DNA from: Parcubacteria group bacterium 21-54-25
GTDB taxonomy: Bacteria; Patescibacteriota; Minisyncoccia; Phycocordibacterales; Phycocordibacteraceae
Direction: 5' to 3'
Assembly: GCA_002255585.1 (NCBI GenBank)
Contig: NCBJ01000003.1
Location: forward strand, 21,571-85,570
Length of the DNA: 64,000 nucleotides
Positions within the stretch are counted from its first letter, which is position 1; every line of letters begins with the position of its first letter. The notes below the pieces were generated by a model, which saw only the letters and a list, made by a program, of their open reading frames with translations, did not search any database and had not been told where the DNA came from. Shown here piece after piece: positions 14,119 to 33,404 of the stretch. A program made the translations under genes and the position numbers.

Positions 14119-14913
14119 ATGGAAAAACGGCCCGACGTTTCGCATGAGCGCAAGAAGGACTCGCGTGAGTCTGTGGCGGAAGGAGGGGTGCTTCGCATGG
14201 TAAGTGAATCTGTGCAGGACCTGATTATCGATGTGGAGAGAGGTCGCTCTGTTTCTCTGGAAACGCTGCAGCTTGTGCAGGCGCAGCTCGAGTACGCGCG
14301 CGAACAAGTCGCAAAACGAGAACAAGCTCTCGAAGAGGCCGAGCGCACTGCACACGAGCACCGCGAAGAAGCCACAAAAGATTCGTTGACCCATCTTTTC
14401 AACCGTCGCGGTTTCATGGAAGCCCTCAGTATGAAAATAGAACGCACGAAGGAATCGCCTACGGATCTGCTCTATGCTTTTTTTATCGATCTCGATAAGT
14501 TCAAATTTGTAAACGACACGTATGGGCACGAGATGGGTGATCGCTATTTAACAATAGTTACCGCACACTTACACAAAGCCCTGCGTCCGGACGATACTCT
14601 CGCGCGTTTCGGCGGTGACGAGTTCACTGCGCTATGTTTTGTGCGTTATAAAGGCGAACAGGCAGAAGAAAGTCACGATGTGGGAGCTTCTCACATAGCC
14701 CTCCGCATTCAATATGCCCTCGACGCTGCGCGTCAAGAATTGAACGAAGAAATTAAAAGAATATTTCCCGATGCTCCACTAGCACACGATGTCGGGAGCG
14801 TCGGATATGCTTTTTATGACCCCACCGAATCTGTCGACGCCGCAGCATTTATCAGGCAAGCTGATAGACGTATGTATGAACAAAAACAAAAAGACAGTGC
14901 TGACAAGCGCTGA
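14119..14913 (+). CDS. GGDEF-domain diguanylate cyclase with an N-terminal coiled-coil
   Basis: [27 protein letters not shown], and RFGGDEF motifs. Confidence 0.8.
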
Positions 14914-16507
14914 GGGATGGTGAGAGAGTATGGTATACCGATAGGGCACGTACGTGCATGGAGAGGTGGCTGAGCGGTCGAAGGCACCGCCTTGGAAAGG
15001 CGGCGTACGGGAAACTGTACCAAGGGTTCGAATCCCTTCCTCTCCGCAGAGTCGGACGGTCAGCACTTTTCGAGAAGCATAGGAAGGGCTTCTTGGCCTC
15101 AATGCTGAGGATCCTGCCCTTTAGAGTGGGGTTCGAACCGACCGTGCTTATGATTCGCCTCTTCAGCGCGTCATCGCCCTCGGTGTACCATTTCGCGGCC
15201 CTACTGCTAAACGAGATCAGAGCCTTGGCGGGTTCGAACCATTTGCCGTCGGAGTTCGATAGCGCTTCCTGAAGACGGGCTTGTTCTTGCTGGAGCGCGG
15301 CGCGTTGTGCCGTAAATTCCTCGTCCCCGATCAAATCTCGAATCCTCAGCGTCGTCAAATTTACGAGTGCTCTCCCCGCTTCATCAGCTGCATGCTGATG
15401 TGACGCCTTTTGCTGCGCAGACACCTCTTGCTCGGCTCTGCGTGCCTTCGCCACTTGCTCGATTCCCCAGATGTGTAGGGGATCCGGTATGCGTAGCGTG
15501 GCGAGAAACTCGCGAAAGGCTTGGTCGAGCTGGGCGGCCGACAAGGAGCGCTGCCGGCAGCGGTAATCGAGTCGACGCCTACTGCAGTGGTAGTACGTAT
15601 AATGCCGGCCGTGGCGGTTGACTTTGTGTTCTGCAGTGACCATGAAGCCGCATTCACCGCAGCGTATAAGGCCGGTAAAGGGAAAGGAGTGGCGGATCGA
15701 TTGCGGTTTCCCCGGCTTGGCGAGAAGTGCCCGCACGCGATCGTGCTCGTCGAGCGTAATCATTCGGGCGTGAGCGCCAGGGTAGATTTGTCCGCCCCAG
15801 ACGAGCACGCCCGCGTAGAACGAGTTGTGCAGGATTCGATGGATACCGCCAATGGTGAGATATTTCCCACCAATACGCTTATGCTGCCGGGTTCGCAGTC
15901 CCCACGCACGGGAATGCTCCATGAGGTCACGGAGTGAATAGGTCCCGGTGAGCGCTAGGTCGAAGAGCTTCCTCACCAAAGCGAATCGGTCAGGATCTTT
16001 GACGATTGTGCGTGACGCGGGGTCATTGAGATAGCCGATCGGCGCGCCGTTGGGGCGCCATCCACGGGCTACCTTTGCGCGATTTCCGCGCTTTACATTT
16101 TCGCTCAGGTTGTCCACGTAGTACTTCGAGTACCCGAAGATGATCGAGAGCATGAACTTCCCCTGGGAGTTGTTTTCGAAGCTGAACGTGGAGAACTTGA
16201 GGTCTTTAAGCGAGCGGCGGTCGAGGAGGTAGATGATCTTCCCGCCATCCACCGAATTGCGTGCCAGGCGATCTGGGTGCCACGTGATGATCCCGTCGGC
16301 TTCCCCGCGCTCAATCCGCTCGAGCATCACGTTGAATATCGGCCGCCCCGGGGCCTTCGCGCTATACGACTCCCGTAGGACTTCAACGACCTCCACTTCC
16401 GGGCGACCCTCAAACGCCCGTTTCAACTCCGCCTCTTGCGAGTCAATGGAAAGTACTTGGCGGTCTTCCGCTTCGCTGGATTTTCGGCAATACACAAAAT
16501 ATTTCAT
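14852..16507 (-). CDS. Large serine recombinase (resolvase/invertase-type catalytic domain plus recombinase, zinc-ribbon and coiled-coil domains). The true 3' end is uncertain because the ORF reads across tRNA-Ser on the opposite strand.
   Basis: N-terminal [19 protein letters not shown]...[13 protein letters not shown] catalytic-Ser domain. Cys cluster (CGECGF...YYHC). C-terminal tail contains GRDSNPW, which is the translation of the tRNA T-arm. Confidence 0.8.
14960..15046 (+). tRNA. tRNA-Ser (anticodon GGA), type II with a long variable arm. No CCA is encoded.
   Basis: Acceptor GGAGAGG/CCTCTCC, D arm GCTGAGCGGTCGAAGGC, anticodon stem CCGCC/GGCGG with loop TTGGAAA, variable stem GTAC/GTAC, T arm AAGGG-TTCGAAT-CCCTT. 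Confidence 0.8.
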
Positions 16508-16936
16508 AGGGTTGTGAGTAACGACGATTAAACAGTACCACGCTTCTGGCGACCGCCCGAGCCACGGGGTCGGGAGGGCGCGGCGACATGTACCCAGGCC
16601 AATCAAGGGAGGCGATCACCCCCCCGGGGGGGCGAGTGAGCGTGCAGAGCCTTTCCAGGGCGCATTTGTTGACGCAATTTGTAGCGGAGCCCGCACGGCA
16701 GTAGCGGGGCGGACGGTATAGCGCCGAAATCCAGATCCGTGCGATAGAGCGTACGGACCGTAACCCAAAGGAGCTAGGGAGGGACACGAGCCGCCCGGGT
16801 GCAATTCGCCCGTATCGGTTTGCCCGACGAGAGCGTATCCCCCGGCGGCCGGAAAACGCCGCGGGGCGGGAATACGGATGCCCTCGGCAGTGTACGGCGC
16901 CTTTCTCACGTTCGCTTCTCCAGGTACCGTGGCGGC

Positions 16937-18268
16937 ATGTCTGAAGGACAACAACCGGCGAACCATATCAACCCGCCAAGCGACAACAAAGAGCGTGTCG
17001 GCAGCGCCCGCCCGAGGGCGACGGCCGCCGCGATCGCAGACGGGAAGGTCCTTGTTGAACTGGTATACGACGCAGAGCGGGAGCGTACGGGGTTCGCGCG
17101 CTTTGAGGAGGGCCACTGGCGCCTCGTATCCGAGTACACGTCGAGCAAAGGGCGGCGCCTCGTGCCGTACGCGGCCCAGAACAACCTCATCAGCAATCGT
17201 GTCGTCCTGCTGCCGTCGGCACCGGAGGAGTACGGCACGCACGGACAACTTTTAGGCGAGATCGAAGCTTTCATCCACCGCTATGTGGATGTCAGCCCGA
17301 CGTTTGAGAAGATCGCGAGCCACTACGTGCTTCTCTCCTGGCTCTATGACGGCTTTAATGAGCTGCCGTACCTGCGCCTCCGAGGCGACTACGGAAGCGG
17401 CAAGACCCGTTTCCTCCTTACCGTCGGCGCCCTTTGCTATAAGCCCATCTTTGCGAGCGGGGCGTCGACCATATCGCCCATCTTCCACATCCTCGACGCC
17501 TTTCAAGGCACGCTCGTGATCGACGAGGCGGACTTTCGCTTCAGCGACGAGAAAGCGGACATGGTGAAGATTTTGAATAACGGCAATGTGCGGGGGATCC
17601 CCATCCTCCGCAATGAGCTTTCGCCGACCAAAGAGTACAACCCCCGGGCCTTCCAGGTCTTCGGCCCTAAAATCGTCGCCACCCGTGGCTACTACCAAGA
17701 CCGCGCCCTCGAAAGCCGGTTCATCACCGAGGAGATGGGCACGACGGCCCTGCGCGACGAGATCCCGATCAACCTGCCGACGGCATACCAAACGGAAGCC
17801 CTGGCGCTCAGGAACAAGCTTCTCCTGTATCGTTTCCACCGCTATGGGCGGGCGTACGCGGCACAGCCGGATCTCGATCGCACGATCGAGCCGCGACTTC
17901 GCCAAATTCTCGCCCCGCTTATGAGCGTGGGCGATGAGTCCCTCAAGGAGGATCTGCGCCTCCTCGCCCGTCAATATCACCGCGACATGCTCGCCGAGCG
18001 CGGCATGGACACGGAAGCGCGCGTCCTTGAGGCGATCCGGGAGCTCGCAACGGAATCGTCTGCCGAGCCGCTCACCGTTAAGGCCGTCACGGAGCGATTC
18101 ACGGCACGCTTCGGCGGCGAGGCCGACCGCCCTCCAACGAACAAATGGATTGGTGGGGTCATCCGCAGACGCCTCAACCTGCACACCCAAAAGAGCCACG
18201 GAAACTTCATCATCCCGCGGCACGAACAGGAAAAGCTCGCCCGCCTCTACGAGCGCTACGGCCTCTAG
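16937..18268 (+). CDS. P-loop NTPase (Walker A GDYGSGKT, Walker B VIDEADF), probably a replication/primase-associated ATPase of the integrated element
   Basis: Walker motifs seen directly. It is divergently transcribed from the recombinase. The family assignment is an inference. Confidence 0.5.
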   Translation: MSEGQQPANHINPPSDNKERVGSARPRATAAAIADGKVLVELVYDAERERTGFARFEEGHWRLVSEYTSSKGRRLVPYAAQNNLISNRVVLLPSAPEEYGTHGQLLGEIEAFIHRYVDVSPTFEKIASHYVLLSWLYDGFNELPYLRLRGDYGSGKTRFLLTVGALCYKPIFASGASTISPIFHILDAFQGTLVIDEADFRFSDEKADMVKILNNGNVRGIPILRNELSPTKEYNPRAFQVFGPKIVATRGYYQDRALESRFITEEMGTTALRDEIPINLPTAYQTEALALRNKLLLYRFHRYGRAYAAQPDLDRTIEPRLRQILAPLMSVGDESLKEDLRLLARQYHRDMLAERGMDTEARVLEAIRELATESSAEPLTVKAVTERFTARFGGEADRPPTNKWIGGVIRRRLNLHTQKSHGNFIIPRHEQEKLARLYERYGL

Positions 18269-18629
18269 CGGGTGGACATGGGGGATGTGGGGACATATAG
18301 CGACGTGGATACGAGTCGCCGTGCCGGGCCAAAAGCAAAGGAAACGCCTAGTGGGTATCCGCTAGCGCACCCGAGGGAACGTCCCCAACATCCCCAACGC
18401 CCCCATTGTCTACCCGACCCGGAGTCCGCCGCCCCCTTCCCGCACCGTCGGCATACATTGACAAATCGGCAACTCCATGTTGTTCTTATACCCCACTTGC
18501 CGATGTGCCTTGCCGATTCGCGCGACCTGCCGTGGGCGGCAAGTTTCCCTTTCTTTCCCCGAGCGTCTCGGCGCCTATGCTTGTCCTTGCGACACGACCC
18601 GACGTGGCCGTGTCGATCCCGACTTGCTT

Positions 18630-19004
18630 ATGTATCGACGAACGCACAACTACATTCGCGCATACCGCAAGCGCGCGGGCTTAAGCCAAGACGAGCTGGC
18701 GCTTTTGCTCGGATGCCGTAGCGGCACCAAGGTGTCTCGCTACGAACGGCACGCCCGTACGCCAACACTTGAAACCGCACTTGCGTGCCAGGCGATATTC
18801 GGCGTTCCGGTGCATGAGCTCTTTCCGGGCATGTATAGGGAGGTCGAACAAGTAACACACGCACGGGCACAGACGCTTGCGCGACAGCTTCGCTCCACGC
18901 CCGGCACGCCGCTGCCGGAGCGTAAGGCGCAGCTACTCGACATGATGGGTGCGCCGCGCGACGTCATCGCCCACCCAAGGAACTATGAAGCATACACGAG
19001 ATGA
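18630..19004 (+). CDS. XRE-family helix-turn-helix transcriptional regulator
   Basis: RAYRKRAGLSQDELALLLGCRSGTKVSRYERHARTP matches the Cro/C1 HTH pattern. The start is moved to the ATG at 18630. Confidence 0.6.
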   Translation: MYRRTHNYIRAYRKRAGLSQDELALLLGCRSGTKVSRYERHARTPTLETALACQAIFGVPVHELFPGMYREVEQVTHARAQTLARQLRSTPGTPLPERKAQLLDMMGAPRDVIAHPRNYEAYTR

Positions 19005-19506
19005 TGCCCTCGTCCTTGGCATCCACCCCGCTTCACGAGGCATCGGGTATACGGTCTTTGAGGGACCGCTCCGCCTCGTCGACTGGGGCGTCAAGGAGAC
19101 GCGGGAAAACAAAAACCGCGCGGGTATACAGAAAATCGGGGAACTCCTCGCGCTCTACCATCCTTCGGTACTTGTCATAGAAGCGTATCGGGGCGAGGGC
19201 TCGCGGCGCGCGAAGCGCATCCAGGCGCTTCTGGATAGCGTTACGGCATTGGCGAGAGCACGCAGGGTGCCGCTCCGGCGCTATTCCCGCGGCCACGTGC
19301 GCGCGTTCTTTTCGAACTACGACGCGACAACCAAGTACCAGATTGCGACGGCGATCGCGGCGTGGCTCCCCGAGCTCGAACCGCGCCTGCCGCCCGTCCG
19401 TAAGCCATGGATGAGCGAAGACTACCGCATGGCGATCTTCGACGCGGCGTCTTTGTCGCTCACGCACTTCCACCACAGCCGTGGCGAGGAGCGGGGCGCG
19501 GCGTAG
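18985..19506 (+). CDS. RuvC/YqgF-like (RNase H fold) resolvase-like protein. The first catalytic Asp is replaced (LGIHPASR instead of LGIDPGSR).
   Basis: N-terminus LVLGIHPASRGIGYTVFEG is colinear with the RuvC ILGIDPGSRVTGYGV motif. VIEAY (Glu) and FDAASLSLTHF (Asp) occur at the expected positions. Confidence 0.45.
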   Translation: MKHTRDDALVLGIHPASRGIGYTVFEGPLRLVDWGVKETRENKNRAGIQKIGELLALYHPSVLVIEAYRGEGSRRAKRIQALLDSVTALARARRVPLRRYSRGHVRAFFSNYDATTKYQIATAIAAWLPELEPRLPPVRKPWMSEDYRMAIFDAASLSLTHFHHSRGEERGAA

Positions 19507-19624
19507 AGGGCACCCGATTGTTCTTTGTCGGGCGGGCACGCGCGCGTGCCCGCCCGAGCCAACGTCTCCCTGCTACTGAGGAGCACCGAATCCCCGGTGT
19601 TCCTGGCGTGGCAAGGAGATACCC

Positions 19625-20536
19625 ATGGATACCGACCGTTCTTTCAAGAAGTCCGACCTCTATGCCCGGGTGACCGACCACATCATCCAGGCGATCGAAG
19701 CGGGAGCCACGGACTATGTCATGCCCTGGCATGAGCAGTCCGGGGCGGGCCTCCCCCGAAACGCCTCGACCGGAAACCTCTACCACGGGGTCAACACCGT
19801 ATCGCTCTGGACAAGTGCGTCGCGCCACGGATACGGCGTGCCGTACTGGGCGACGCTCCGACAGTGGGGTGCGCTCGGGGCCCGCGTCCTGCGCGGCGAG
19901 AAAGCCTCGCTCGTGGTCTTCTACAAGCGGGAGGAGGCGCCGGCCGACACAGAAACGAGCGAGAGCGTGGGGAAGAGGCGGGGCGTTCTCCGGGCCTCCT
20001 TCGTCTTCAATGCCCTCCAGGTTGACGGTTGGTCGCCGCCGGTACCCGAGAAGACCGATCGCACCGAGCGGCTCCAGGCGGCAGACGACCTCATCGAGGC
20101 GCTCGGGGCCGAGATCCTCTACGGGAGCACCCGCGCCTGCTACAGCCCGACCCTCGACCGCATCTTTATGCCCGGGCGTCCCCAGTTCATTGATGGAAGC
20201 ACGAGCACCGCGACCGAAGGATTCTATTCGGTCTTGCTCCATGAGCACATTCATTGGTCGGGGTACCGCACGCGGCTCAATCGAGACCTCACGGGGCGCT
20301 TCGGCGATAGCGCCTACGCCATGGAGGAGCTCGTCGCAGAACTGGGCGCGGCGTTCCTCTGCGCCGAGCTTGGCATCGAAGATCACCCGCGGCACGACCA
20401 CGCCGCGTACGTGGCAAGCTGGCTGGAGGTCCTTCGCCGGCAGAAGTCGGCAATCTTCACGGCGGCCAGTACCGCAACGGCGGCTTGCCGCTACCTCTCG
20501 GAGGTGGCAAGCCGGGTGGCCCAATCGTCCCTGTGA
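19625..20536 (+). CDS. ardC: ArdC-like antirestriction protein (N-terminal ssDNA-binding DUF1738 domain plus C-terminal zinc metalloprotease)
   Basis: ArdC_N-like N-terminus (DLYARVTDHIIQAIEAG...MPW). C-terminal LLHEHIHWSGY HExxH motif. Confidence 0.75.
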   Translation: MDTDRSFKKSDLYARVTDHIIQAIEAGATDYVMPWHEQSGAGLPRNASTGNLYHGVNTVSLWTSASRHGYGVPYWATLRQWGALGARVLRGEKASLVVFYKREEAPADTETSESVGKRRGVLRASFVFNALQVDGWSPPVPEKTDRTERLQAADDLIEALGAEILYGSTRACYSPTLDRIFMPGRPQFIDGSTSTATEGFYSVLLHEHIHWSGYRTRLNRDLTGRFGDSAYAMEELVAELGAAFLCAELGIEDHPRHDHAAYVASWLEVLRRQKSAIFTAASTATAACRYLSEVASRVAQSSL

Positions 20537-20949
20537 CCCTCCTCACCGCTGTCCTTTCCGTAGCCCGGCCGCGTGGCCGGGCTTTTTCTATCCATTCGCT
20601 TGAAGCGCCGCCGCAGCGGCAGGGTGCCGGCGTGGCAACTTTCCCCGTCTTTTTGGCGGCCTTCGTATCCGTATGCTACGGGCACGCCGCAGCCGTAGGG
20701 TGAGCGGCGTACAGATCCCACACGTTCCCACGCTCGTCCTCGTTTGGACGGGTAGCCCCCGGGAAGCCGGGGGGAAGTCGCCTGCCGTGTTGTACCACGG
20801 GGGAAAGCGTATCCATCGCATGGGCGCCACCGTTTCAACCTTCACACGGTTCCCCCCCCCTCCAGAGTGCATTGACCCCCGCTCGGGGGTCGCCCGAAGC
20901 CCGGTTCGGCGAAGCGGGCTTCCAAACGGCAACCGAGCGGAGGTGTGCA

Positions 20950-21453
20950 ATGAGCGATAAACAAGATGTACTGAGGGTCGTCGAGATGAACGGGCCGTAT
21001 GTAGCCGTCCGCGACCTTTCCCCCGACGACGTGATCGAAGCCGCCAAGAAGATCCTCAGGGCGCGTTTCCAGCGCGGGAAGAAACTTGATTGTTCCGCCG
21101 ACGCCAAGGATTATGTGATCCTCACCCTCGGCGACCGGGATCACGAGGCGTTTGCCTGCCTGTTTCTTGACACGCGCCATCGGGTGATTCGCTGCGACCT
21201 TATGGCCACCGGCTCGCTTGCGGAGGCGCGGGTGTACCCGCGGGAGGTCGTGAAGCGGGCACTACTCTACAACGCAGCCGCGGTGATTTTCGCCCACAAC
21301 CATCCCTCGGGCGTCGCCGAGCCGAGCAAGGGCGACAAGGCGCTCACGGACCGGCTCGCAAGCGCTTTGCAGCTCATCGACGTACAGGTACTCGACCACC
21401 TTGTCGTGGGCGGTGACGAGACCGTGAGCTTTGCCGATCGCGGGATGTTATGA
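20950..21453 (+). CDS. radC: RadC-like JAB/MPN domain protein
   Basis: HNHPSGVAEPSKGDKALT JAMM motif with an upstream E and S. The start is moved to the ATG at 20950. Confidence 0.85.
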   Translation: MSDKQDVLRVVEMNGPYVAVRDLSPDDVIEAAKKILRARFQRGKKLDCSADAKDYVILTLGDRDHEAFACLFLDTRHRVIRCDLMATGSLAEARVYPREVVKRALLYNAAAVIFAHNHPSGVAEPSKGDKALTDRLASALQLIDVQVLDHLVVGGDETVSFADRGML

Positions 21454-21461
21454 GGTCTTCG

Positions 21462-21488
21462 GTCGCTCCTTCGGGGGCGACTTTTTTA
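21462..21488 (+). terminator. Rho-independent terminator after radC copy A
   Basis: GTCGCTCC-ttcg-GGGGGCGAC followed by TTTTTTAT. Confidence 0.6.
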
Positions 21489-21624
21489 TGCAAAGCGGCC
21501 GTGACGCGTCTGGTGCCATCCCGCCTTCGAGGGTGTATAATCCCCACATTTCCCGTGTTAGGGCACCCACGACCAGTCGGGGCCAACACACGAGCGCGTT
21601 TCTGCGCGCTACGGTAGGCGTACC

Positions 21625-21930
21625 ATGCCCGCATCGATCAGCGAAATCATCGCGAATTTCGTGGCCTTCATCAATGAGCACGGCGGCGCGGGCGACTCGT
21701 GGTACGTCGGAATCGCATCCGACCCGCGCGATCGGCTCGTGCGTACCCACGGTGTCCAGGAGGACGTCGACATCTGGCTTTTCCGCGGAGCGCCTACGGT
21801 CACCGCCGCTCGCGGTGTCCTGTATTATTTTGTGAACGAGTTTGGTGTTGATGGGGGGCACCCCGACGACGGCACGGATGAGGGACCGTTTGTCTACCTA
21901 TACAAGAAGGCGGTCACTACGCGGCCGTAG
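21625..21930 (+). CDS. Hypothetical small protein
   Basis: 101-aa ORF in a GC-rich segment with no recognised motif. Confidence 0.3.
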   Translation: MPASISEIIANFVAFINEHGGAGDSWYVGIASDPRDRLVRTHGVQEDVDIWLFRGAPTVTAARGVLYYFVNEFGVDGGHPDDGTDEGPFVYLYKKAVTTRP

Positions 21931-22066
21931 TGAGCGCGTGTCGCCTACCGGATGTACAGGTAGCCAAACTAATCAGTATAGGCTGGTCATAAAGATTCGT
22001 GACACCCAGGACTGATCGCTACGCGTTCTTTTTCATGCATACTCTCCAACCATCCTCGGGGTCCAA

Positions 22067-22090
22067 CCGACCCTTCCGGTCGGGTTTTTT
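22067..22090 (+). terminator. Rho-independent terminator (CCGACC-cttcc-GGTCGG-T6). A convergent minus-strand hairpin plus T-run at ~22107-22140 probably terminates the Dcd-like gene.
   Basis: Hairpins with U-runs seen on both strands between convergent genes. Confidence 0.5.
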
Positions 22091-22207
22091 GTGCAGTAAA
22101 TACTATGCGCACAAAAACCGGCCACCTAAAACTAGGTAACCGGTAAGCAACCAGGAGTCCTTGGCCACGAAGCGCTCTCAATTCGGCCTTCGTATCGTAC
22201 AACTTGC

Positions 22208-23104
22208 TCACAACCAGTGCCGGAGTCCTAACAGCACCGCGCTAACCACTACCGTAACGAGAGCACCAATGACGGCGGCAAAAATCGCAATCTTAACAGT
22301 TCGGCGGTGATCTTTCTGTTGCTCCAACTGACCGAATCTGGATTCGATTTTGACGAAGTCTCGATGAAGGTCTTGGTCGCCGCTGACTCTAAGACTTTTT
22401 TCGTTCTCGAGACCGTCTGTTAGTTTCTTCACCTCTTCCTTCAGGGCCCGGATACCTTGCAACACATTTCCAAGGTCTTCCCTGAATTCCTTCTTCCAGT
22501 CGTCTTGCTCTCGGACCTCGTTCTTAAGAGAGGTAACTTCTTGTTGCGTAGCCCGGATGGCGTCTCGGAGCCCCTCTAGCCTGATCGGCTGATAGTTCTG
22601 CATGAGACGCACGACGTCGTCCGGGAAGTCCGAGATTGATTCCGGCTGAGGAAACGTATCGATCTCCCCCTCCTCAAGGACATAGAAGACGGCCGCGATG
22701 AGTTTTTTGCGCGGCCGTAATGGCCATCGTGTCGTTGAGAAGTTGTAAAGGCCGACGAGCAGATTCCCCCGGTAGAGCGGATCGATGAAAAATCCCCCGA
22801 GAACAAGGATCCCTTCGTGGCTGAGTTTCCGCTTGGGGCTCAGCATTGCAGCCATGGTGTTTGGCAGATTAAGGACTTCTTCCGTAAGGACAAACGCGAC
22901 TTCGCCTGGATCAATGAAGAGCGCGCTGCGCTGCGTCTCGGTTAGTTTCATCACATCAATCGGTCCACCTCCCGCTTTGAGGAGCCGATTGCCCATCCTA
23001 AGGTCGTACTTCGCTCCTTCTACGCACGTCTCCTCGCCGCCTCGAATGAAAGTTTGGTCCCGGACCGCCGCAAGAAGACGTTGTCCCGTGACTATTGTTG
23101 GCAT
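22208..23104 (-). CDS. dCTP deaminase/dUTPase-fold (Dcd-like) domain fused to a ~70-aa coiled-coil and a C-terminal transmembrane anchor
   Basis: GAKYDLRMGN...IDPGEVAFVLTEEVLNLP...SPKRKLSHEGILVLGGFFIDPLYRGNLLVGLYNFS is colinear with Dcd motifs. Then heptad-rich KNEVREQDDWKKEFREDLGNVLQGIRALKEEVKKL and a terminal hydrophobic helix. The start is moved to the ATG at 23104. Confidence 0.6.
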   Translation of the reverse strand: MPTIVTGQRLLAAVRDQTFIRGGEETCVEGAKYDLRMGNRLLKAGGGPIDVMKLTETQRSALFIDPGEVAFVLTEEVLNLPNTMAAMLSPKRKLSHEGILVLGGFFIDPLYRGNLLVGLYNFSTTRWPLRPRKKLIAAVFYVLEEGEIDTFPQPESISDFPDDVVRLMQNYQPIRLEGLRDAIRATQQEVTSLKNEVREQDDWKKEFREDLGNVLQGIRALKEEVKKLTDGLENEKSLRVSGDQDLHRDFVKIESRFGQLEQQKDHRRTVKIAIFAAVIGALVTVVVSAVLLGLRHWL

Positions 23105-23340
23105 TGTAATGGCGCCTCCCGTGTCTTGGACGTGCTGCGGAGTACCGTCGACCCGTCCATCGGTTTGTTTGCGTGGGGTCATGGCTTTTTCCTCCTTGTT
23201 GAACTGACCGGCAGAACACCACGAGAACCGTGCCGTGCTGCCGGCAGTTCGCAAGAAGAACCACCCCGCGATCTTTCCGCGTCAAAGAGCTACCCAAGAA
23301 CCAGTATATCAGGTAAAAAATTTCAGGAACGCAACCGGAC

Positions 23341-23883
23341 ATGAAGGATGCTGCGGCCAATTCAGTCCTCGTGCTTGCCGTGAGTCCCGTGGCCCGTGGG
23401 TTTGCGTATGCCGCTTTCGAGGGTCCGCAGACGCTTCTTGACTGGGGACGAAAGGAGGCGCGCGTCAACCGCTACGCGTACGCGCGCCGGGAGCTTGCGG
23501 TTCTAGTCGGCTGGTACCGGCCGGAGCTCGTGGTGCTTGAGGGGGCTCGGCGCCACGAGGTCGAAGCGTTCGTCGATCAGTTTGAGCGGCATGCGCGCGC
23601 GGGCTATTCGCACCGAGCGGTTTGGCCAGCAGCGGGTTGCGGAGGTGTTCTCGGAGTTTGGCGCCACCCGGAAGTTCCAGCGCGACCGACTGCTCGGGCA
23701 ATGGTTCCCGGAGCTTGCGGGCGTGGTCAGAATGCGCCCGCCAACCTCGACGACAGAGCGCTGCGCCGCGAATGCATTCGACACCATCGCTCTCGCGCTC
23801 GTCCACTTCTACCTCGCCGCCTGATCGGGCAGGCCCGCTCGGGGACCGAACGAAGTCCAGTTCGAAGGAACCGGGCTTCGTGA
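23341..23883 (+). CDS. RuvC/YqgF-like resolvase-like protein, paralog of 18985..19506. The first catalytic Asp is replaced (LVLAVSPVARG).
   Basis: AFEGPQTLLDWGRKEARVNRYAYARRELAVLVGWYRPELVVLE parallels VFEGPLRLVDWGVKETRENKNRAGIQKIGELLALYHPSVLVIE in copy A. Confidence 0.4.
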   Translation: MKDAAANSVLVLAVSPVARGFAYAAFEGPQTLLDWGRKEARVNRYAYARRELAVLVGWYRPELVVLEGARRHEVEAFVDQFERHARAGYSHRAVWPAAGCGGVLGVWRHPEVPARPTARAMVPGACGRGQNAPANLDDRALRRECIRHHRSRARPLLPRRLIGQARSGTERSPVRRNRAS

Positions 23884-23909
23884 CGGCAACGGAGCAGGAG
23901 ATAGGCACG

Positions 23910-24413
23910 ATGAGCGAGAAACGGGAAGTGTTCCGTCGTGTGGAGACCGATGGCCCCTGCACGGCCATACGCGAGCTCACGCCCGACGAGGTGATCGGGG
24001 AAGCGAAGCGGATCATCAAGGCGCGCTTCCGGCGCGGGCGCAGGATCGCCCAGCCCAGGGACGCCGAGGATTACCTCATCCTCACCCTTGGCGACCGCGA
24101 GCAGGAGGTCTTCTCCTGCCTCTATCTCGACCAGCGCCACCGGGTAATCAGCTGCGACCTCATGGCCTTCGGCACCCTGGCCGAGGCCCGAGTCTACCCG
24201 CGGGAGATCGTCAAACGAGCCATCCTTTACAACGCGAGTTCGATCATCTTCGCCCACAACCATCCCTCGGGCGTCGCCGAGCCCAGTAAGGACGACGAGG
24301 CGCTCACGCGCCGACTTTCCGACGCCCTTCGCCTCATCGACGTCCGCGTACTCGACCACTTCGTCGTAGGGGGAGGCGAGACGGTGACCTTCGCCGAGCG
24401 CGGGTTGCTGTGA
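23910..24413 (+). CDS. radC: RadC-like JAB/MPN domain protein (second copy, ~70% identical to 20950..21453)
   Basis: HNHPSGVAEPSKDDEALT motif and the same length (167 aa). Confidence 0.85.
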   Translation: MSEKREVFRRVETDGPCTAIRELTPDEVIGEAKRIIKARFRRGRRIAQPRDAEDYLILTLGDREQEVFSCLYLDQRHRVISCDLMAFGTLAEARVYPREIVKRAILYNASSIIFAHNHPSGVAEPSKDDEALTRRLSDALRLIDVRVLDHFVVGGGETVTFAERGLL

Positions 24414-24420
24414 GGCATTT

Positions 24421-24447
24421 GGTCGCCCTTTTAGGGCGGCCTTTTTT
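24421..24447 (+). terminator. Rho-independent terminator after radC copy B
   Basis: GGTCGCCC-ttttag-GGCGGCC followed by TTTTTTG. Confidence 0.6.
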
Positions 24448-24530: not shown

Positions 24531-24800
24531 ATGACACCCAGCGAAATTGTAAATGTTCGGCGTGCCTTGGGGCTTTCCCAGGTTGAGTTTGCGCGCTTAT
24601 TGGACGTTCATTCTATGACCGTGAGTAAATGGGAGCGCGGCCTCGTTCCACCGACCCCATATCAGGTTGCACTTATGGACCAGTTTCGTCGCGCGACCCA
24701 AGCGCAACAGGCCAAGGTCGACGAGCAGCTAAAGCATCTGCTGGTCAGTGCCGGCGTCATAGCGGCCCTGTTTTTCCTCCTCAAATCCGCTAACGAGTGA
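24531..24800 (+). CDS. XRE-family HTH protein with a C-terminal transmembrane helix
   Basis: RRALGLSQVEFARLLDVHSMTVSKWERG HTH. C-terminal LLVSAGVIAALFFLL helix. Confidence 0.6.
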   Translation: MTPSEIVNVRRALGLSQVEFARLLDVHSMTVSKWERGLVPPTPYQVALMDQFRRATQAQQAKVDEQLKHLLVSAGVIAALFFLLKSANE

Positions 24801-24806
24801 GGCGGT

Positions 24807-25187
24807 ATGTCTCCATTTAACCCCTTCGCCATTCTTGTACTCTCCCGTCCAAAGCTCACCGGTCTCGGTGAACATTGGGGGGTCCGACTTCCCGATGGTC
24901 GCGTAGCGCATTGTATGCCTGTGATTGGGGTCTGCATTAGCTCATTTGAAGACTTTTCGGCAGGCAAGGACGTCGTGGTGCGACGTGAGGTGTCTCCGGC
25001 GCTACTTAGCGAAGTGTATCGTCGACTGAACGTGGCCCTTTTTTATCCGCGGCCATACGACTTGCTCTCGTGGAACTGCGAGAGCTTCGCGAACTGGCTA
25101 ACTTGTGGGGAGCCCGAAAGCGCGCAAGTCGCCGGCATCGGCATCCTTTTCTTCCTAACTTTAGTAGTGGCTGGGCTTTCCAGGTGA
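24807..25187 (+). CDS. LRAT/NlpC-P60-superfamily (H-box ... NCE-x-F catalytic Cys) domain protein with a C-terminal TM helix
   Basis: HWGV (His) and LSWNCESFANWL (catalytic Cys motif NCExF), as in LRAT/PPPDE-type domains. Confidence 0.45.
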   Translation: MSPFNPFAILVLSRPKLTGLGEHWGVRLPDGRVAHCMPVIGVCISSFEDFSAGKDVVVRREVSPALLSEVYRRLNVALFYPRPYDLLSWNCESFANWLTCGEPESAQVAGIGILFFLTLVVAGLSR

Positions 25188-25444: not shown

Positions 25445-27220
25445 ATGCGCGCGCAGAATATGAGTATGAGCTTAACTCGCCAACACGTGCTCGATTTGGA
25501 AGACTACAAGGTGCGACCGGCGTTATCCCCGATCGTGCAAAATGCCGTTGATGTCTTGGCCAGCGCGCATGGGACAGAGCGTGGGGCTATCTACACCCGC
25601 CAGGAAGTCGTGGAGTTTATTCTCGATCTCGTTGGGTACACAACGGATCATCCACTTCATGAGGCGCGATTGCTGGAACCCTCGGTGGGCGAGGGCGACT
25701 TTCTCGTTCCAGCGGTTAAGCGTCTGCTGGCTTCCTACGCAACCAGCCGTCGTCCGCACTCGGCGCTTGTGGATGACCTCGCTCCCGCGCTCACGGCGGT
25801 CGAGCTGCATTCCGACAGTTTGACGCTAGTCAAGGAGAAGGTTCTTGGCGTGCTCGGCGAATTTGACGTTACGGGGCCTTCGGCGCGCCAGTTGCTCGAT
25901 GCTTGGCTGAGTAACGGCGACTTCCTCCTTACAAACCTTCCCCGTCCATTCACGCATGTTGTGGGTAATCCGCCGTATGTCCGGCAGGAGCTCGTCCCCG
26001 ACGCGCTCCTGCAAGAGTACCGGCGGCGATACGAAAGCATCTATGATCGGGCGGATCTGTATGTGCCATTCATCGAGCGCTCGCTAACGTCCCTTGAGCC
26101 GGGTGGCGTTGTGGGCTTTATATGTACAGATCGATGGATGAAGAATCGGTACGGAAAGCGGCTTCGGCAGATCATTTCTGAGGGCTACCACCTCCGCAGC
26201 TATGTCGACATGGTTGGGACGGACGCATTCCATTCCGATGTCACGACCTATCCGGCAATTACCGTGATCGCGCGCGAGAAGGCGGGCCCCACGCGGCTTG
26301 CAGGGCAGCCTAAGATCGATCGGGACTCGTTGCGTCAGCTCGCCGAGCTGATGAATGCAAGGCAAATCGCACCCGACGGCCCTGTCGCTGAACTAGCGGG
26401 GGTCGTCGACGGCGCAGATCCCTGGCTGCTGCAATCTGCCGATCAGCTCCAGGTGGTCCGGCGCCTAGAGCAGGAGTTTCCGATGCTCGAAGAAACGGGT
26501 TGCCAGGTAGGTATTGGCGTTGCAACTGGTGCCGATCGGGTGTTCGTAGCCCCGTTCGAGGAGCTGGACGTTGAGCCATCCCGCAAGCTGCCACTGGTGA
26601 TGACGAAGGACATTGCTTCGGGAGTGGTGAAGTGGCGGGGGTTCGGCGTCGTGAATCCCTTTGAGGCGGACGGCCAGCTGGTGGATCTTGCGGCTTACCC
26701 GCGGCTACGGCGGTATCTTGAGCACCACCGGGACACGGTCGCGCGTCGTAATTGCGCGACGAGACATCCGAATGGCTGGTACCGGACGATTGACCGGATT
26801 TACCCTGAGCTAGCCACGACGCCAAAACTCCTAATTCCAGATATCAAGGGTGAAGCGAACGTAGTATACGAGAGCGGGAAGCTCTATCCTCACCACAACC
26901 TGTATCACGTGACCTCGAAAGCGTGGGATCTTCGGGCGCTTCAGGCAGTCCTGCGCTCCTCGGTTGCGAAGCTCTTCGTGTCGACGTACTCAACCCGGAT
27001 GCGCGGAGGCTATTTGCGGTTTCAGGCGCAGTACCTTCGCCGTATTCGGATCCCTCAGTGGGATGAGGTACCAGACGACCTCCGGAGGAGTCTCACTGAG
27101 GCCGCAAAGTCGGGTGATACCGAAGCATGCAACCGCGCGGTATTTGTGCTCTATAGGCTGACACAAGAAGAACAAGCCGCAATTGGTGGCAGCGGAGCCC
27201 AAGATCGATATGACAATTGA
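25445..27220 (+). CDS. N6-adenine DNA methyltransferase (gamma class, Eco57I/TaqI-like family), the modification subunit of a Type II R-M system
   Basis: Motif [11 protein letters not shown]-terminal AdoMet-binding region. 591 aa with a C-terminal target-recognition region. Confidence 0.8.
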
Positions 27221-27947
27221 CCTCGCGGATTTCGATACCAAGGCACGGGAGGCGATTAAGGCGTTCTGGGGAAACCGCGAGGCGGCGCGCCAGCGGCAGA
27301 TCGCACAAGGAAAAGCGGACCAAGGAGAGCGGGCGGGTGTCACGGCGGGCAAGAACATGGACGGTTTCGTGTTGCTCGCGCAGGACATCGTACGCCAAAA
27401 CGGCTTACCGCACGCCGACATTTTCCTTAAGCGACGTGTCCTCACCCTCCCAGGCTATTTTCGTCCGACTAAGCAATGGGACATGCTCGTGATGAACCAA
27501 GGCCGCCTTGTGGCTGCCATTGAATTCAAGAGCCAGGTGGGGCCCTCTTTCGGGAATAACTTTAACAATAGGACAGAGGAGGCGATTGGCACCGCTCTCG
27601 ACCTACGAACCGCGTTCCGAGAAGGTGCCTTTGGGGATAGCCAGGCTCCATTCGTCGGTTGGTTGATGTTGGTCGAAGACTGTGAAGGTTCTCGATCTCC
27701 GGTGCGGGATCGCTCCCCCCACTTCCCGGTATTCGCAGATTTCCAAGGCTCCTCGTACGCGGATCGCTATAACATCCTGTGCAGGAAGCTTGTCCAGGAA
27801 CAGCTGTATACGGCAGCGTCGGTGATTATCTCCAGCCGATCCGCGGTTGACACCGGAGCCTTCGCAGAGCTGCTACCGTTGACTGGCTTGCGGACGTTCG
27901 TAGCAAGCTTGGGAGGACACGTTGCGGCCGAGGCGGCTCGGGGCTGA
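27210..27947 (+). CDS. Type II restriction endonuclease (PD-(D/E)xK). Its start overlaps the MTase stop by 11 nt.
   Basis: [21 protein letters not shown] carries D...ExK. The M-then-R layout and sizes (~590/245 aa) resemble PaeR7I/XhoI-type systems. The family is not confirmed. Confidence 0.5.
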
Positions 27948-28279
27948 GCCGAAATCAATCGTCCCGGGACCGTTTTTCCCGAGGCCATTTCACTCAAGAA
28001 TGCGAAAATGGTGGCGGCGTTGGGTCCGATGGCGGGCTACGGCGGCGGAGGATGCGGCCTGGGGGCGCGCGCGTCTACCAAAGATATACAAGCTTGCTCT
28101 GAGTGGCTGGGTACGGCATATGGTGGCGAGAAAGCGGAGCCAGGTCTGCGGAAACGTTACGAGACAGTATTGCAGTGGCCAGTTTAGGCCGAGCATAGAT
28201 TTGGGACATAGTCAGTCCCGGCGGACTCTTGCCCAAAGTGACGTGAGTGGGCGGCGCTCATGAGACATAGGTAAATTTT

Positions 28280-28570
28280 ATGGTCAAAGTTCTCAGTCCT
28301 CTACAAATCGTGGGCCTGGTTTGGTTCTGCGCATCCATTATATTGGCGCTTAGCACCACAGTTTATTTCAGATTCTGGTTGCGTAGGCGCGACGTAAAGG
28401 TAATGCTGGGTTTGGCGGCGGTTCCCGGCTATCTAGAGATGCTCTATATGAAATGGTGTCGAGAACACTCGCAGAGCGGGACGGTAGTTCTTTCGCTCCG
28501 TTTCGTGCTGCTTGTTAATGTATTGTTGTCAGCACTGATCGTGGTTCCGTTTGTAATCATGAAAAATTGA
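28280..28570 (+). CDS. Small membrane protein (3 predicted TM helices) upstream of the SIR2-like gene
   Basis: 96 aa, hydrophobic, low-GC segment. Confidence 0.35.
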   Translation: MVKVLSPLQIVGLVWFCASIILALSTTVYFRFWLRRRDVKVMLGLAAVPGYLEMLYMKWCREHSQSGTVVLSLRFVLLVNVLLSALIVVPFVIMKN

Positions 28571-28716
28571 TGACTCGTGAATTATTTTTCACGGCTACCC
28601 AAAGACCCCTACCCCGTCGGCGTGGTTTGCGGCATTCAGCGGGATCCCATAGAAAAGAACGAGGCAAGAATATCACAATGCTGCATTATTTATGGCGTCG
28701 TGTTTAGAAACGCACT

Positions 28717-30891: not shown

Positions 30892-30986
30892 TTCCCCTTA
30901 GGAGTGGAAAGGTCGCTGTGCAACCTATTGAACTCGTGATGGATAAATGGCACCATCACAAAACCATCACACGAGAACCGGCACTC

Positions 30987-33399: not shown

Positions 33400-33404
33400 G
33401 GAAA

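What the first reader, a model, noticed from the sequence alone, without database searches (positions are those of the whole stretch)
18630..24413. Duplicated anti-restriction-type module: XRE HTH, a RuvC-like protein with a substituted catalytic Asp, ArdC and RadC; then a second RuvC-like plus RadC copy
Copy A (18630-21453) and copy B (23341-24413) share paralogous RuvC/YqgF-fold proteins and ~70%-identical RadC JAB proteins, each followed by a terminator. In both RuvC-like proteins the first catalytic Asp of the RuvC motif (GIDPGSR) is replaced (H in A, S in B), while the later Glu/Asp positions are retained. This suggests a degenerate or repurposed resolvase fold, possibly a DNA-binding decoy. 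ArdC plus RadC are typical of conjugative-element leading regions that counter host defences. The duplication may mark two tandem related elements.
Basis: partly seen in the sequence, partly recalled or inferred. Interest (0 to 1): 0.55.

Follow-up and report, generated by a model that had tools for sequence, protein, structure and literature searches.

The report
XRE-coupled, catalytically degenerate RuvC-like protein
The "RuvC-like" gene belongs to a large, unnamed family of Holliday-junction-resolvase look-alikes that is always paired with an XRE regulator beside a large serine integrase in mobile elements from many phyla. About half its members have lost catalytic residues, so it is probably a non-cutting partner in the element's control module, not part of a duplicated anti-restriction module.

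Summary
All the named genes are real: XRE, RuvC-like A (His at the EcRuvC Asp7 position), ArdC, RadC-A, RuvC-like B (Ser) and RadC-B. Each radC is followed by a terminator. Copy B, however, is broken by a frameshift near 23600-23608, and A and B are old paralogs (33% identity).

The AF2 model (pLDDT 89.9) matches RuvC structures. The family is large (826 clusters at E<1e-30) and has no Pfam, PHROGs or PADLOC model. It spans Verrucomicrobiota, Proteobacteria, Acidobacteriota, CPR and a DPANN MAG.

An XRE gene sits directly upstream in about 70 of 76 loci, overlapping by 4 nt in 38 of 70, and is sometimes fused. A large serine recombinase lies upstream in 37 of 55 loci with enough flank. ArdC or RadC directly follow in only about 12 loci, so they are variable cargo.

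The first Asp is kept in only 53% of representatives and the D-E-D triad in 41%. Non-catalytic motifs (DWG, RGxG, PWMSEDYRM) are kept in about 90%, and dN/dS is about 0.2.

A related element (L082) has the same A and B layout with B intact, so B is not the relic of a second tandem element.

Best reading: a mostly non-catalytic RuvC-fold partner of the XRE switch in the integration module. The mechanism is inferred, not shown.

The parts
14960..15047 (+). tRNA-Ser(GGA). Probable integration site and left border of the island.
   Evidence: ARAGORN and Rfam tRNA at 57 bits. GC rises from about 0.54 to 0.60-0.65 to its right.
14852..16507 (-). Large serine recombinase (LSR). The 3' end of its ORF runs antisense through the tRNA.
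   Evidence: Resolvase, Recombinase and Zn_ribbon_recom domains. Homologs lie upstream of the RuvC-like gene in 37 of 55 loci with at least 7 kb of flank.
16799..18268 (+). P-loop protein (Walker A GDYGSGKT, Walker B VIDEADF). Start codon uncertain. Probable replication or helicase-type ATPase of the element.
   Evidence: No Pfam, NCBIfam, PHROGs or PDB hit. Homologs sit between the LSR and XRE in 39-41 loci. In L003 a DnaG-type primase precedes it.
18460..18629 (+). Conserved block upstream of XRE, with TTGCCGA/TCGGCAA repeats and a small hairpin. Candidate promoter or operator.
   Evidence: Inverted repeat 18462-18472 / 18497-18507. The block is conserved with L082. Function is inferred.
18630..19004 (+). 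XRE-family HTH protein with a conserved C-terminal helical extension. Constant partner of the RuvC-like gene.
   Evidence: HTH_31 and HTH_3. It lies directly upstream on the same strand in about 70 of 76 loci, with a 4-nt overlap in 38 of 70. Conservation profile. Natural fusions are P0145 and P0122.
18985..19506 (+). RuvC-like A (173 aa). RuvC fold with His at the EcRuvC D7 position. Overlaps XRE by 20 nt.
   Evidence: AF2 pLDDT 89.9. Foldseek hits to RuvC. Profile alignment to 1hjr. 462+ homologs and 826 clusters at E<1e-30. dN/dS 0.22 against L082.
19625..20536 (+). ArdC (ssDNA-binding N-terminal domain plus zincin metallopeptidase with HEHIH). Followed by a terminator at 20562-20583.
   Evidence: ArdcN E=2.8e-31 and MPTase-PolyVal E=3.3e-46. 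Terminator. ArdC directly follows the RuvC-like gene in only 5 loci.
20620..20709 (+). 90-nt conserved non-coding block. In L082 it lies upstream of RuvC-like B. Candidate cassette promoter.
   Evidence: tblastx and MAFFT against L082 7022-7111.
20876..20946 (+). radC leader hairpin, copy A.
   Evidence: Alignment. Fold of -43.2 kcal/mol, z = -4.3. CM hit at 86.6 bits.
20950..21453 (+). RadC-A (JAB/MPN domain, HNHPSG...S..D motif). Terminator at 21461-21482.
   Evidence: RadC E=1.7e-42. NCBIfam radc. Terminator.
21625..21930 (+). orf101, unknown function. In L082 its homolog follows RadC.
   Evidence: 51% aa identity to L082 8485-8802. No family hit.
22208..23182 (-). dCTP-deaminase/dUTPase-like domain, then a coiled coil and a C-terminal TM segment. 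Cargo gene diverging from RuvC-like B.
   Evidence: Pfam DCD. PDB dCTP deaminase E=4e-9. 79% aa identity to L082.
23183..23340 (+). Highly conserved divergent intergenic region between the DCD-like gene and RuvC-like B.
   Evidence: 88% nt identity to L082 6844-7000, higher than the flanking genes.
23341..23824 (+). RuvC-like B, a frameshifted pseudogene (or an assembly error). Ser at the first catalytic position. Lacks PWMSEDYRM.
   Evidence: Three-frame translation. Alignment to the intact 166-aa L082 ortholog, 71% identity after repair. dN/dS 0.26. The subfamily has only 3 database hits.
23832..23903 (+). radC leader hairpin, copy B.
   Evidence: CM hit at 87 bits. Fold z = -2.9.
23910..24413 (+). 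RadC-B. Terminator at 24421-24441.
   Evidence: RadC E=1e-41. 73% aa identity to the L082 RadC. Terminator.

Best explanation
The interval is the core-proximal part of an integrative, probably mobilizable, element inserted at tRNA-Ser.

**Layout**
- The conserved backbone is a large serine recombinase, an optional P-loop ATPase, and a translationally coupled XRE / RuvC-like operon.
- Variable cargo starts right after the RuvC-like gene. Here the cargo is ArdC, RadC, a DCD-like gene, an R-M system and a SIR2-like gene.

**The RuvC-like protein**
- It has a genuine RuvC fold, but it belongs to a separate, unnamed family in which catalysis is dispensable.
- The window copy (His at the metal-binding Asp) most likely cannot cleave DNA.

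**Inferred mechanism**
- It probably works as a dimeric, DNA-structure-binding or protein-binding partner of the XRE regulator.
- Together they would form the switch of the integration module, controlling excision, establishment, or both.

**Copy B**
- It is a divergent, lineage-specific paralog in a small cassette: promoter block, RuvC-like B, leader, radC, orf101.
- Two partial copies of that cassette flank the DCD-like gene. In this window B is inactivated by a frameshift.

**Shown versus inferred**
- Shown: fold, residue substitutions, synteny, gene overlap, fusions, purifying selection, cassette history.
- Inferred: loss of cleavage, complex formation with XRE, and the regulatory or excision role.

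The confidence given applies to the whole statement. The identity and architecture part alone would be about 0.85, and the mechanism part about 0.3.
For: - **Fold:** AF2 pLDDT 89.9 and RuvC top hits.
- **Active site:** His aligns to EcRuvC D7.
- **Family-wide loss of catalytic residues:** position 1 is Asp in 79 of 150 representatives, with A20, Y18, S8, H7, F5 and Q3 among the rest. E66 is kept in 133, D141 in 117, and the full triad in 61. By contrast W(DWG) is kept in 140, G(RGxG) in 140, W(PWMSE) in 134 and E145 in 140. Species-level loci give the same picture.
- **Selection:** purifying selection on the His/Gln pair, dN/dS 0.22. XRE gives 0.29.
- **Coupling to XRE:** XRE is directly upstream in about 70 of 76 loci. 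The overlap is 4 nt in 38 of 70. Continuous XRE / RuvC-like fusion ORFs exist: P0145 (L083), P0122 and L065.
- **Link to the recombinase:** an LSR lies upstream, divergent, in 37 of 55 loci with enough flank. In Verrucomicrobiota the conserved unit is just LSR, XRE and RuvC-like, and homology stops at the RuvC-like stop codon.
- **ArdC/RadC are cargo:** they are adjacent in only about 12 loci.
- **Copy B:** the same A and B layout occurs in L082 with B intact.
- **Established knowledge (my own):** RuvC D7, E66, D138 or D141 mutants bind junctions but do not cleave them.
Against: - No biochemical or interaction data exist. The AF2 model of the natural fusion gave a poorly predicted HTH domain (pLDDT 36-62), so no interface information came from it.
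- About 40% of family members keep D-E-D and could be active nucleases, so the ancestral and perhaps main function may still be cleavage.
- His can bind metals, so residual activity of copy A is not excluded.
- About 14 of 55 loci with long flanks have no LSR within 10 kb. They hold IS elements, Tyr integrases or housekeeping genes instead.
- The operator-like repeats upstream of XRE are only partly conserved in L082.
Confidence: 0.45

Rival explanations
1. The RuvC-like protein is the recombination directionality factor (RDF) of the neighbouring large serine recombinase. It would be a scavenged DNA-repair protein that binds the integrase and licenses excision, so its nuclease chemistry has become dispensable.
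For: - In Verrucomicrobiota the minimal conserved unit is LSR, XRE and RuvC-like.
- An LSR is present in 37 of 55 well-flanked loci.
- Catalytic residues are lost while other surfaces stay conserved.
- Published work shows LSR RDFs are structurally diverse, often 'moonlighting' replication proteins. Bxb1 gp47 resembles an editing exonuclease and TG1 gp25 is an SSB (bioRxiv 10.1101/2024.08.21.608926; PMC12286644).
Against: - The XRE / RuvC-like pair also occurs without any LSR within 10 kb (14 of 55 loci).
- In L054 a tyrosine integrase sits in the equivalent position.
- The tightest link is to XRE (overlap, fusions), not to the LSR.
- No RuvC-like RDF appeared in my term searches of the two RDF papers.
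- I could not run a multimer prediction.
Confidence: 0.2
2. It is still a working structure-specific nuclease (Holliday-junction or branch resolvase). It would serve replication or recombination of the excised element, with His substituting for Asp.
For: - The fold is RuvC.
- The E66 and D141 equivalents are kept in copy A.
- 41% of representatives keep D-E-D.
- A P-loop ATPase and, in some loci, a DnaG-type primase lie next to it.
- Five loci carry a second tandem paralog that keeps D-E-D.
Against: - Position 1 is A, Y, F, S, Q, R or V in about half of lineages, and none of these can bind Mg2+.
- The D138 equivalent is never acidic.
- The module persists in elements with no replication genes.
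- Serine recombinases do not produce Holliday junctions (established knowledge).
Confidence: 0.1
3. XRE and the RuvC-like protein form a toxin-antitoxin or addiction pair, with an XRE antitoxin and a nuclease toxin, that stabilises the integrated element.
For: - The gene order is antitoxin-like: a small HTH gene first, with a 4-nt overlap.
- The XRE protein gives weak hits to MqsA and HipB-type antitoxin models, all below their cut-offs.
- The pair persists in IS-rich remnants, for example on a Bradyrhizobium plasmid.
Against: - The presumed toxin's catalytic residues are lost in about half of lineages, yet the protein stays under purifying selection.
- Natural XRE / RuvC-like fusions are hard to reconcile with a labile antitoxin.
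- No PADLOC hit or TA-family hit for the RuvC-like protein.
Confidence: 0.08
4. One reading: a duplicated anti-restriction module in which the RuvC-like protein acts as a DNA-binding decoy alongside ArdC and RadC, with the duplication marking two tandem related elements.
For: - ArdC and RadC are real and lie next to the RuvC-like genes.
- RadC or ArdC directly follow the RuvC-like gene in about 12 other loci.
- L082 carries a diverged ArdC 3' remnant (72% nt), which hints at past recombination between related elements.
Against: - In most loci the RuvC-like gene has neither ArdC nor RadC nearby.
- Copy B has no XRE, LSR or P-loop partner.
- The same A and B layout is inherited in L082.
- A and B are 33% identical.
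- Nothing points to DNA mimicry.
Confidence: 0.07

Closest known systems
Bacterial RuvC Holliday-junction resolvase (Pfam PF02075; PDB 1hjr, 4ld0/6s16, 7w8d)
   Same: - Same RNase H-like fold and size: Foldseek E about 3e-8, TM 0.65-0.78.
- N-terminal 'lGIDPgsrg.G' strand motif and the Glu after beta4 align.
- The last-helix Asp (EcRuvC D141) is mostly kept.
   Different: - Sequence similarity is marginal: PDB profile E=0.0026, NCBIfam 16 bits against a cut-off of 163, and no Pfam hit.
- The first Asp is lost in about 47% of representatives, and the D138 equivalent is never acidic.
- It has family-specific motifs GSRR and RLPPxRKPWMSEDYRM.
- It is encoded on mobile elements and coupled to an XRE gene, not placed in a ruvCAB context.
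Phage RuvC-like resolvases (e.g. Lactococcus phage bIL67, PDB 4ktw; PHROG 159)
   Same: Mobile-element-encoded proteins with a RuvC fold.
   Different: - No homolog in 50,697 phage genomes by tblastn.
- No PHROGs hit for copy A.
- Phage enzymes keep the catalytic acids and are not paired with XRE.
RuvC/YqgF-fold pseudonucleases (human TEFM C-terminal domain; the YqgF domain of Tex/Spt6)
   Same: - RuvC-like fold with incomplete catalytic sites, used for binding rather than cutting.
- They appear as lower-ranked structural matches.
   Different: - No detectable sequence relationship.
- These are transcription-elongation factors, not mobile-element proteins.
- The analogy is functional only and was not tested.
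XRE-repressor plus enzyme-fold partner modules of mobile elements (ImmR/ImmA of ICEBs1, CapH/CapP)
   Same: A small XRE HTH gene is followed by a tightly coupled second gene next to the integrase. The XRE protein gives a weak capH hit.
   Different: The partner here has a RuvC fold, not a metalloprotease fold. No cleavage-site or sensor evidence exists.
Moonlighting RDFs of large serine integrases (Bxb1 gp47, TG1/phiC31 gp25/gp3)
   Same: DNA-metabolism folds are recruited to an integrase module, and their enzymatic activity is not needed for directionality.
   Different: No RuvC-fold RDF appeared in my term searches of the two RDF papers. An interaction with the LSR was not tested here.

Membership tests
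RuvC Holliday-junction resolvase (PF02075 / NF000711) | RNase H-like RuvC fold | tested here: met
   AF2 pLDDT 89.9. The 12 top Foldseek PDB hits are RuvC.
RuvC Holliday-junction resolvase (PF02075 / NF000711) | Score above the curated family cut-off | tested here: not met
   No Pfam hit at E<=0.01. NCBIfam NF000711 gives 16.3 bits against a cut-off of 163.
RuvC Holliday-junction resolvase (PF02075 / NF000711) | Catalytic acidic tetrad (EcRuvC D7, E66, D138, D141) | tested here: not met
   - Copy A has H, E, A, D.
- Copy B has S, E, A-type, D.
- Across the family the D-E-D triad is kept in 61 of 150 and D138 is never acidic.
RuvC Holliday-junction resolvase (PF02075 / NF000711) | Homodimer that cleaves Holliday junctions | not testable with these tools
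   Needs biochemistry or multimer modelling.
ArdC anti-restriction protein | N-terminal ArdcN ssDNA-binding domain plus C-terminal zincin (HExxH) peptidase domain | tested here: met
   PF08401 E=2.8e-31 and PF18818 E=3.3e-46. The HEHIH motif is readable in the translation.
RadC (JAB/MPN) family | RadC-like JAB domain with HxH...S..D metal motif | tested here: met
   PF04002 E=1.7e-42 for copy A and 1e-41 for copy B. TIGR00608 scores above its cut-off for A. HNHPSGVAEPSKxD is present in both copies.
Large serine recombinase | Resolvase catalytic domain, Recombinase domain and zinc beta-ribbon domain | tested here: met
   PF00239, PF07508 and PF13408.
LSR recombination directionality factor | Binds the cognate integrase (DBD2/coiled-coil hinge) and switches it to attL x attR recombination | not testable with these tools
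   Only synteny is available.
Type II toxin-antitoxin pair with XRE antitoxin | Toxic partner with conserved active site, neutralised by the upstream HTH protein | tested here: inconclusive
   The gene order and overlap fit. The active site is not conserved and fusions exist. Toxicity was not tested.
Conjugative leading-region anti-defence module | Anti-restriction genes clustered next to oriT/relaxase on a transferable element | tested here: inconclusive
   ArdC and RadC are present. T4CP-like and Replic_Relax genes lie 14-17 kb downstream, beyond a tyrosine integrase gene, and may belong to another element. No oriT was identified.

The most novel reading that the evidence does not exclude
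The XRE / RuvC-like pair could be a previously unrecognised two-protein directionality and induction switch for a pan-phylum family of large-serine-recombinase elements, found from Verrucomicrobiota to CPR bacteria and a DPANN archaeon.

In this reading a scavenged, now mostly catalytically dead RuvC does one of two things:
- it binds the integrase as an RDF, or
- it senses branched or single-stranded DNA and passes that signal to the XRE repressor.

Either would make it a bacterial mobile-element counterpart of eukaryotic RuvC-fold pseudonucleases such as TEFM.
Probability: 0.22. Interest if true: 0.75.

Novelty: new variant of a known kind. Interest (0 to 1): 0.55.

Why it matters
- **A marker for a class of elements.** If the reading is right, a gene now annotated as 'hypothetical protein' or mis-called 'RuvC' marks the core of a very widespread class of serine-integrase elements. 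The family has hundreds of 50%-identity clusters and reaches CPR and DPANN genomes. The gene would help to find and delimit such islands and their cargo of defence and anti-defence genes.
- **A natural experiment in pseudoenzyme evolution.** The metal-binding Asp is replaced by at least seven different residues (A, Y, S, H, F, Q, R, V; number of independent events not counted) while the rest of the protein stays constrained.
- **A practical use.** Large serine integrases are genome-engineering tools limited by unknown RDFs. A conserved three-gene integrase, XRE and RuvC-like module is a concrete, testable place to look for a new directionality factor.

Tried and rejected
- **Family libraries.** Pfam, NCBIfam, PHROGs and PADLOC scans of the RuvC-like proteins gave nothing above threshold.
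- **Literature.** Six full-text searches found no description of this family or of a RuvC-like RDF.
- **Right border of the island.** Searching for a repeat of the tRNA 3' end found only the tRNA itself.
- **Fusion model.** The AF2 model of the natural XRE / RuvC-like fusion P0145 was meant to show the interface.
- **afdb50 fold search.** The library was unavailable.
- **B-type homolog search.** Only 3 hits, so no subfamily statistics were possible. A search with P0145 returned only itself.
- **radC leader model.** A covariance model of the radC leader, searched over 1.36 Mb of related loci, hit only the three copies it was built from, plus weaker antisense hits at those same three sites. The leader is therefore lineage-specific and not a general radC element. 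There is no Rfam hit either.
- **Programmed frameshift in copy B.** Rejected, because the L082 ortholog is a single intact frame.
- **Copy B as the core gene of a second tandem element.** Rejected. It lacks XRE, LSR and P-loop neighbours, and the same layout is inherited in L082.
- **IS-generated duplication as the source of the L082 ArdC remnant.** Rejected, because it is only 72% identical to the resident ArdC.

Full report
**1. What is in the interval**

ORF listing and family scans confirm the named genes:
- XRE HTH protein, 18630-19004.
- A 173-aa protein, 18985-19506, overlapping XRE by 20 nt.
- ArdC, 19625-20536 (ArdcN plus MPTase-PolyVal).
- RadC-A, 20950-21453.
- A second RuvC-like reading frame starting at 23341.
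- RadC-B, 23910-24413.

Terminator-like hairpins with T-runs follow ArdC, RadC-A and RadC-B. The two RadC proteins are 67% identical.

The interval lies in a GC-rich island (0.60-0.65 against about 0.53) that starts at a tRNA-Ser(GGA) gene, 14960-15047. The first island gene is a large serine recombinase (LSR) on the minus strand, and its ORF runs antisense into the tRNA. A 489-aa P-loop protein with no family hit follows.

The window matches a contig of the MAG 'Parcubacteria group bacterium 21-54-25', where the RuvC-like protein is annotated as hypothetical.

**2. The RuvC-like fold and the substituted Asp are real**

- No Pfam, PHROGs or PADLOC model matches copy A. NCBIfam RuvC gives 16 bits against a cut-off of 163.
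- An AF2 model built on 29 homologs has mean pLDDT 89.9. Its twelve best PDB matches are all RuvC (D. radiodurans, T. thermophilus, E. coli, P. aeruginosa), with E about 3e-8 to 1e-6 and TM 0.62-0.78.
- Inactive YqgF and TEFM-type domains rank lower. Phage RuvC models also match.
- A family profile aligns 'laiDPstrGfG' to EcRuvC 'LGIDPGSRVTG' and the Glu after beta4 to E66.
- Copy A has His at the D7 position and copy B has Ser.
- The C-terminal Asp matches EcRuvC D141. The D138 equivalent is Ala, Ser, Asn or Gly throughout the family.

**3. Copy B is broken, and it is an old paralog**

- Homology to the family switches from frame 0 to frame +1 near 23600.
- The closest related element, L082, encodes an intact 166-aa ortholog that also has Ser. 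It is 71% identical to the repaired window sequence.
- Against that ortholog, the window copy shows an 18-nt in-frame deletion and a 2-nt deletion. Copy B is therefore a pseudogene or carries an assembly error.
- A programmed frameshift is unlikely because L082 is in a single frame.
- A and B are only 33-36% identical.
- B lacks the family motif PWMSEDYRM, and its subfamily has only three database hits.
- dN/dS between the window and L082 is 0.22 for A and 0.26 for B, similar to ArdC, RadC and XRE. Both paralogs were under purifying selection despite the missing Asp.

**4. The family and its constant neighbours**

The family is large: 462+ hits in the 90% clusters. A full HMM scan gives 3950, 2612 and 826 clusters at 50% identity for E below 1e-3, 1e-10 and 1e-30.

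Species-representative genomes gave 76 loci. They come from:
- Verrucomicrobiota
- Alpha- and Deltaproteobacteria
- Acidobacteriota
- Binatia
- Nitrospinota
- Desulforudis
- Bacteroidota
- Planctomycetota
- Gemmatimonadota
- CPR lineages (Moraniibacteriota, Saccharibacteria)
- a Pacearchaeota MAG

The family is absent from 50,697 phage genomes. It occurs on only four Bradyrhizobium plasmids, again as HTH regulator plus 'hypothetical protein' with a 4-nt overlap.

I called ORFs myself and searched them with phmmer using the window proteins. The results:

| Neighbour of the RuvC-like gene | Frequency |
|---|---|
| XRE homolog directly upstream, same strand | about 70 of 76 loci |
| XRE stop and RuvC-like start overlap by exactly 4 nt | 38 of 70 |
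| LSR upstream, mostly divergent | 37 of 55 loci with at least 7 kb of flank |
| P-loop protein between LSR and XRE | 39-41 loci |
| ArdC directly downstream | 5 loci |
| RadC directly downstream | about 7 loci |

- Continuous XRE / RuvC-like fusion ORFs exist: P0145 in L083, P0122 and L065.
- In Verrucomicrobiota the conserved unit is only LSR, XRE and RuvC-like. Between genomes, nucleotide homology ends at the RuvC-like stop codon, and the flanks differ.
- The RuvC-like gene is therefore a backbone gene of the integration module, and ArdC and RadC are the first cargo.
- Loci without an LSR hold IS elements, tyrosine integrases, a MobA relaxase or housekeeping genes. They look like remnants or hybrids.

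**5. Catalysis is dispensable in the family**

Counts among the 150 best cluster representatives:

| Position | Residues kept |
|---|---|
| First catalytic position (EcRuvC D7) | D 79, A 20, Y 18, S 8, H 7, F 5, Q 3 |
| E66 equivalent | 133 |
| D141 equivalent | 117 |
| Full D-E-D triad | 61 |
| W of DWG | 140 |
| G of RGxG | 140 |
| W of PWMSE | 134 |
| E145 | 140 |

- Species-level loci show the same pattern: D about 34, A about 20, Y 6, H 6, F 3.
- Non-catalytic positions are thus better conserved than catalytic ones, which is the signature of a pseudoenzyme family.
- It is established knowledge (my own) that RuvC mutants at D7, E66, D138 or D141 still bind junctions but cannot cut them.
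- Five loci carry a second tandem paralog that keeps D-E-D. This leaves room for heterodimers or for an active subset.

**6. History of the 'duplication'**

L082 is the closest relative. Its copy A is 64-65% identical and has Gln at the D7 position. Its layout is:

P-loop, XRE, RuvC-like A, ArdC, DUF2127(-), IS3(-), ArdC 3' remnant, DCD-like(-), conserved intergenic region, 90-nt block, RuvC-like B, leader, RadC, orf101.

The window has two partial copies of the cassette [90-nt block, RuvC-like B, leader, radC, orf101]:
- Copy 1, 20620-21930, lacks RuvC-like B.
- Copy 2, 23183-24446, keeps the broken B and RadC-B but lacks the 90-nt block and orf101.

The DCD-like gene and its divergent intergenic region (88% nt identity to L082) lie between them.

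The 70-nt radC leader folds into a stable hairpin (z -2.9 to -4.3). It occurs only in these three places.

The evidence points to cassette-level duplication and recombination among related elements. It does not point to two complete elements in tandem.

**7. Mechanism**

Shown:
- fold
- substitutions
- selection
- coupling to XRE (overlap, fusions)
- membership of the LSR core

Inferred:
- The His variant does not cleave.
- It binds XRE, DNA structures, or both.
- The pair controls the integration and excision switch, or establishment in a new host.

The main rival is an RDF role. This fits published evidence that LSR RDFs are diverse, scavenged replication and repair proteins. It is weakened by loci that lack an LSR and by one locus with a tyrosine integrase in the equivalent position.

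An active resolvase role, a toxin-antitoxin role and the anti-restriction decoy idea are less likely. The reasons are given under the rival explanations.

**8. Novelty and score**

- RuvC folds, ArdC, RadC, XRE and LSRs are all known.
- What appears undescribed is this XRE-coupled, catalytically degenerate RuvC-like family as a hallmark of LSR elements. It has no family model, PGAP annotates it as 'hypothetical protein', and six literature searches found nothing.
- I rate it a new variant of a known kind, with interest 0.55.
- The gene identities and synteny are solid. The mechanism is open.

Noticed in passing
window 20876-20946 and 23832-23903; L082 7746-7813: A conserved 70-nt hairpin leader lies immediately upstream of the RBS of both radC copies and of the L082 radC. 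Folding z-scores are -4.3, -2.9 and -4.1. There is no Rfam match. It was not found upstream of radC in 80 other loci, so it is lineage-specific. It may be a 5'-UTR regulatory or stabilising element.
   Followed up: yes
window 22208-23182 (-) and 23183-23340: A dCTP-deaminase/dUTPase-like domain is fused to a long coiled coil and a C-terminal TM segment (79% aa identity to L082). Its divergent intergenic region is 88% nt identical to L082, more conserved than any neighbouring gene. The protein is a candidate nucleotide-depletion defence or cargo gene with a strongly constrained control region.
   Followed up: partly
window 24531-25187: A second small XRE/MqsA-like HTH gene (89 aa) is followed 6 nt later by an LRAT/NlpC-P60-like papain-fold protein with a hydrophobic C-terminus. 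It looks like another two-gene regulator and effector pair.
   Followed up: no
window 25445-30486: A defence cargo block: an Eco57I/TaqI_C-type N6-adenine methyltransferase, an XhoI-family endonuclease (E=2e-93), and a 589-aa SIR2-like protein with PADLOC SIR2 hits at E about 1e-24.
   Followed up: partly
window 30918-42630: A second mobile region lies to the right. It holds a tyrosine integrase, GmrSD-like and RiboL-PSP HEPN genes, a PrtN-like gene, a T4CP-like ATPase overlapping a Replic_Relax protein, a RepC/DnaD-like HTH protein, a 3'-5' exonuclease and a second T4CP-like gene. GC is mosaic (0.51-0.65). This suggests accretion of several elements downstream of tRNA-Ser.
   Followed up: partly
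window 14852-15047: The last 65 or so codons of the serine recombinase ORF run antisense through the intact tRNA-Ser gene. The attachment crossover probably lies inside the 3' end of the integrase gene. No second copy of the tRNA 3' end exists in the window.
   Followed up: partly
L020 10525-11019, L023 10428-11012, L040 10431-11009, L068 2518-3015, L070 6898-7395: In five loci a second RuvC-like paralog follows the first immediately and keeps the D-E-D residues. In L040 the first has Ala at D7, and in L020 it has Gln at E66. These could form heterodimers of active and inactive subunits.
   Followed up: partly
L046, L047, L051 and other Verrucomicrobiota loci (about -3.1 kb to +0.6 kb around the RuvC-like gene): A compact unit of about 3.3-3.8 kb, holding LSR, XRE and RuvC-like, is conserved between genomes and between two sites of one MAG (82% nt), with unrelated flanks. 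It is often next to giant surface-protein genes. It could be a minimal integration module or a very small element.
   Followed up: partly
L082 5480-5720: A diverged 3' remnant of a second ArdC gene (72% nt identity to the resident ArdC) lies beside an IS3 element and DUF2127. This is evidence of past recombination between related elements.
   Followed up: yes
window 18462-18517: Three TTGCCGA/TCGGCAA motifs (one inverted, two direct) lie 110-170 nt upstream of the XRE start. The two direct copies are conserved in L082. They are candidate XRE operator half-sites.
   Followed up: partly
L015 (Pacearchaeota MAG), L010/L043 (Moraniibacteriota), L026/L073 (Saccharibacteria): The same P-loop, XRE, RuvC-like (and RadC) arrangement appears in contigs binned as DPANN archaea and CPR bacteria. 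This means either an unusually broad host range or binning errors.
   Followed up: no
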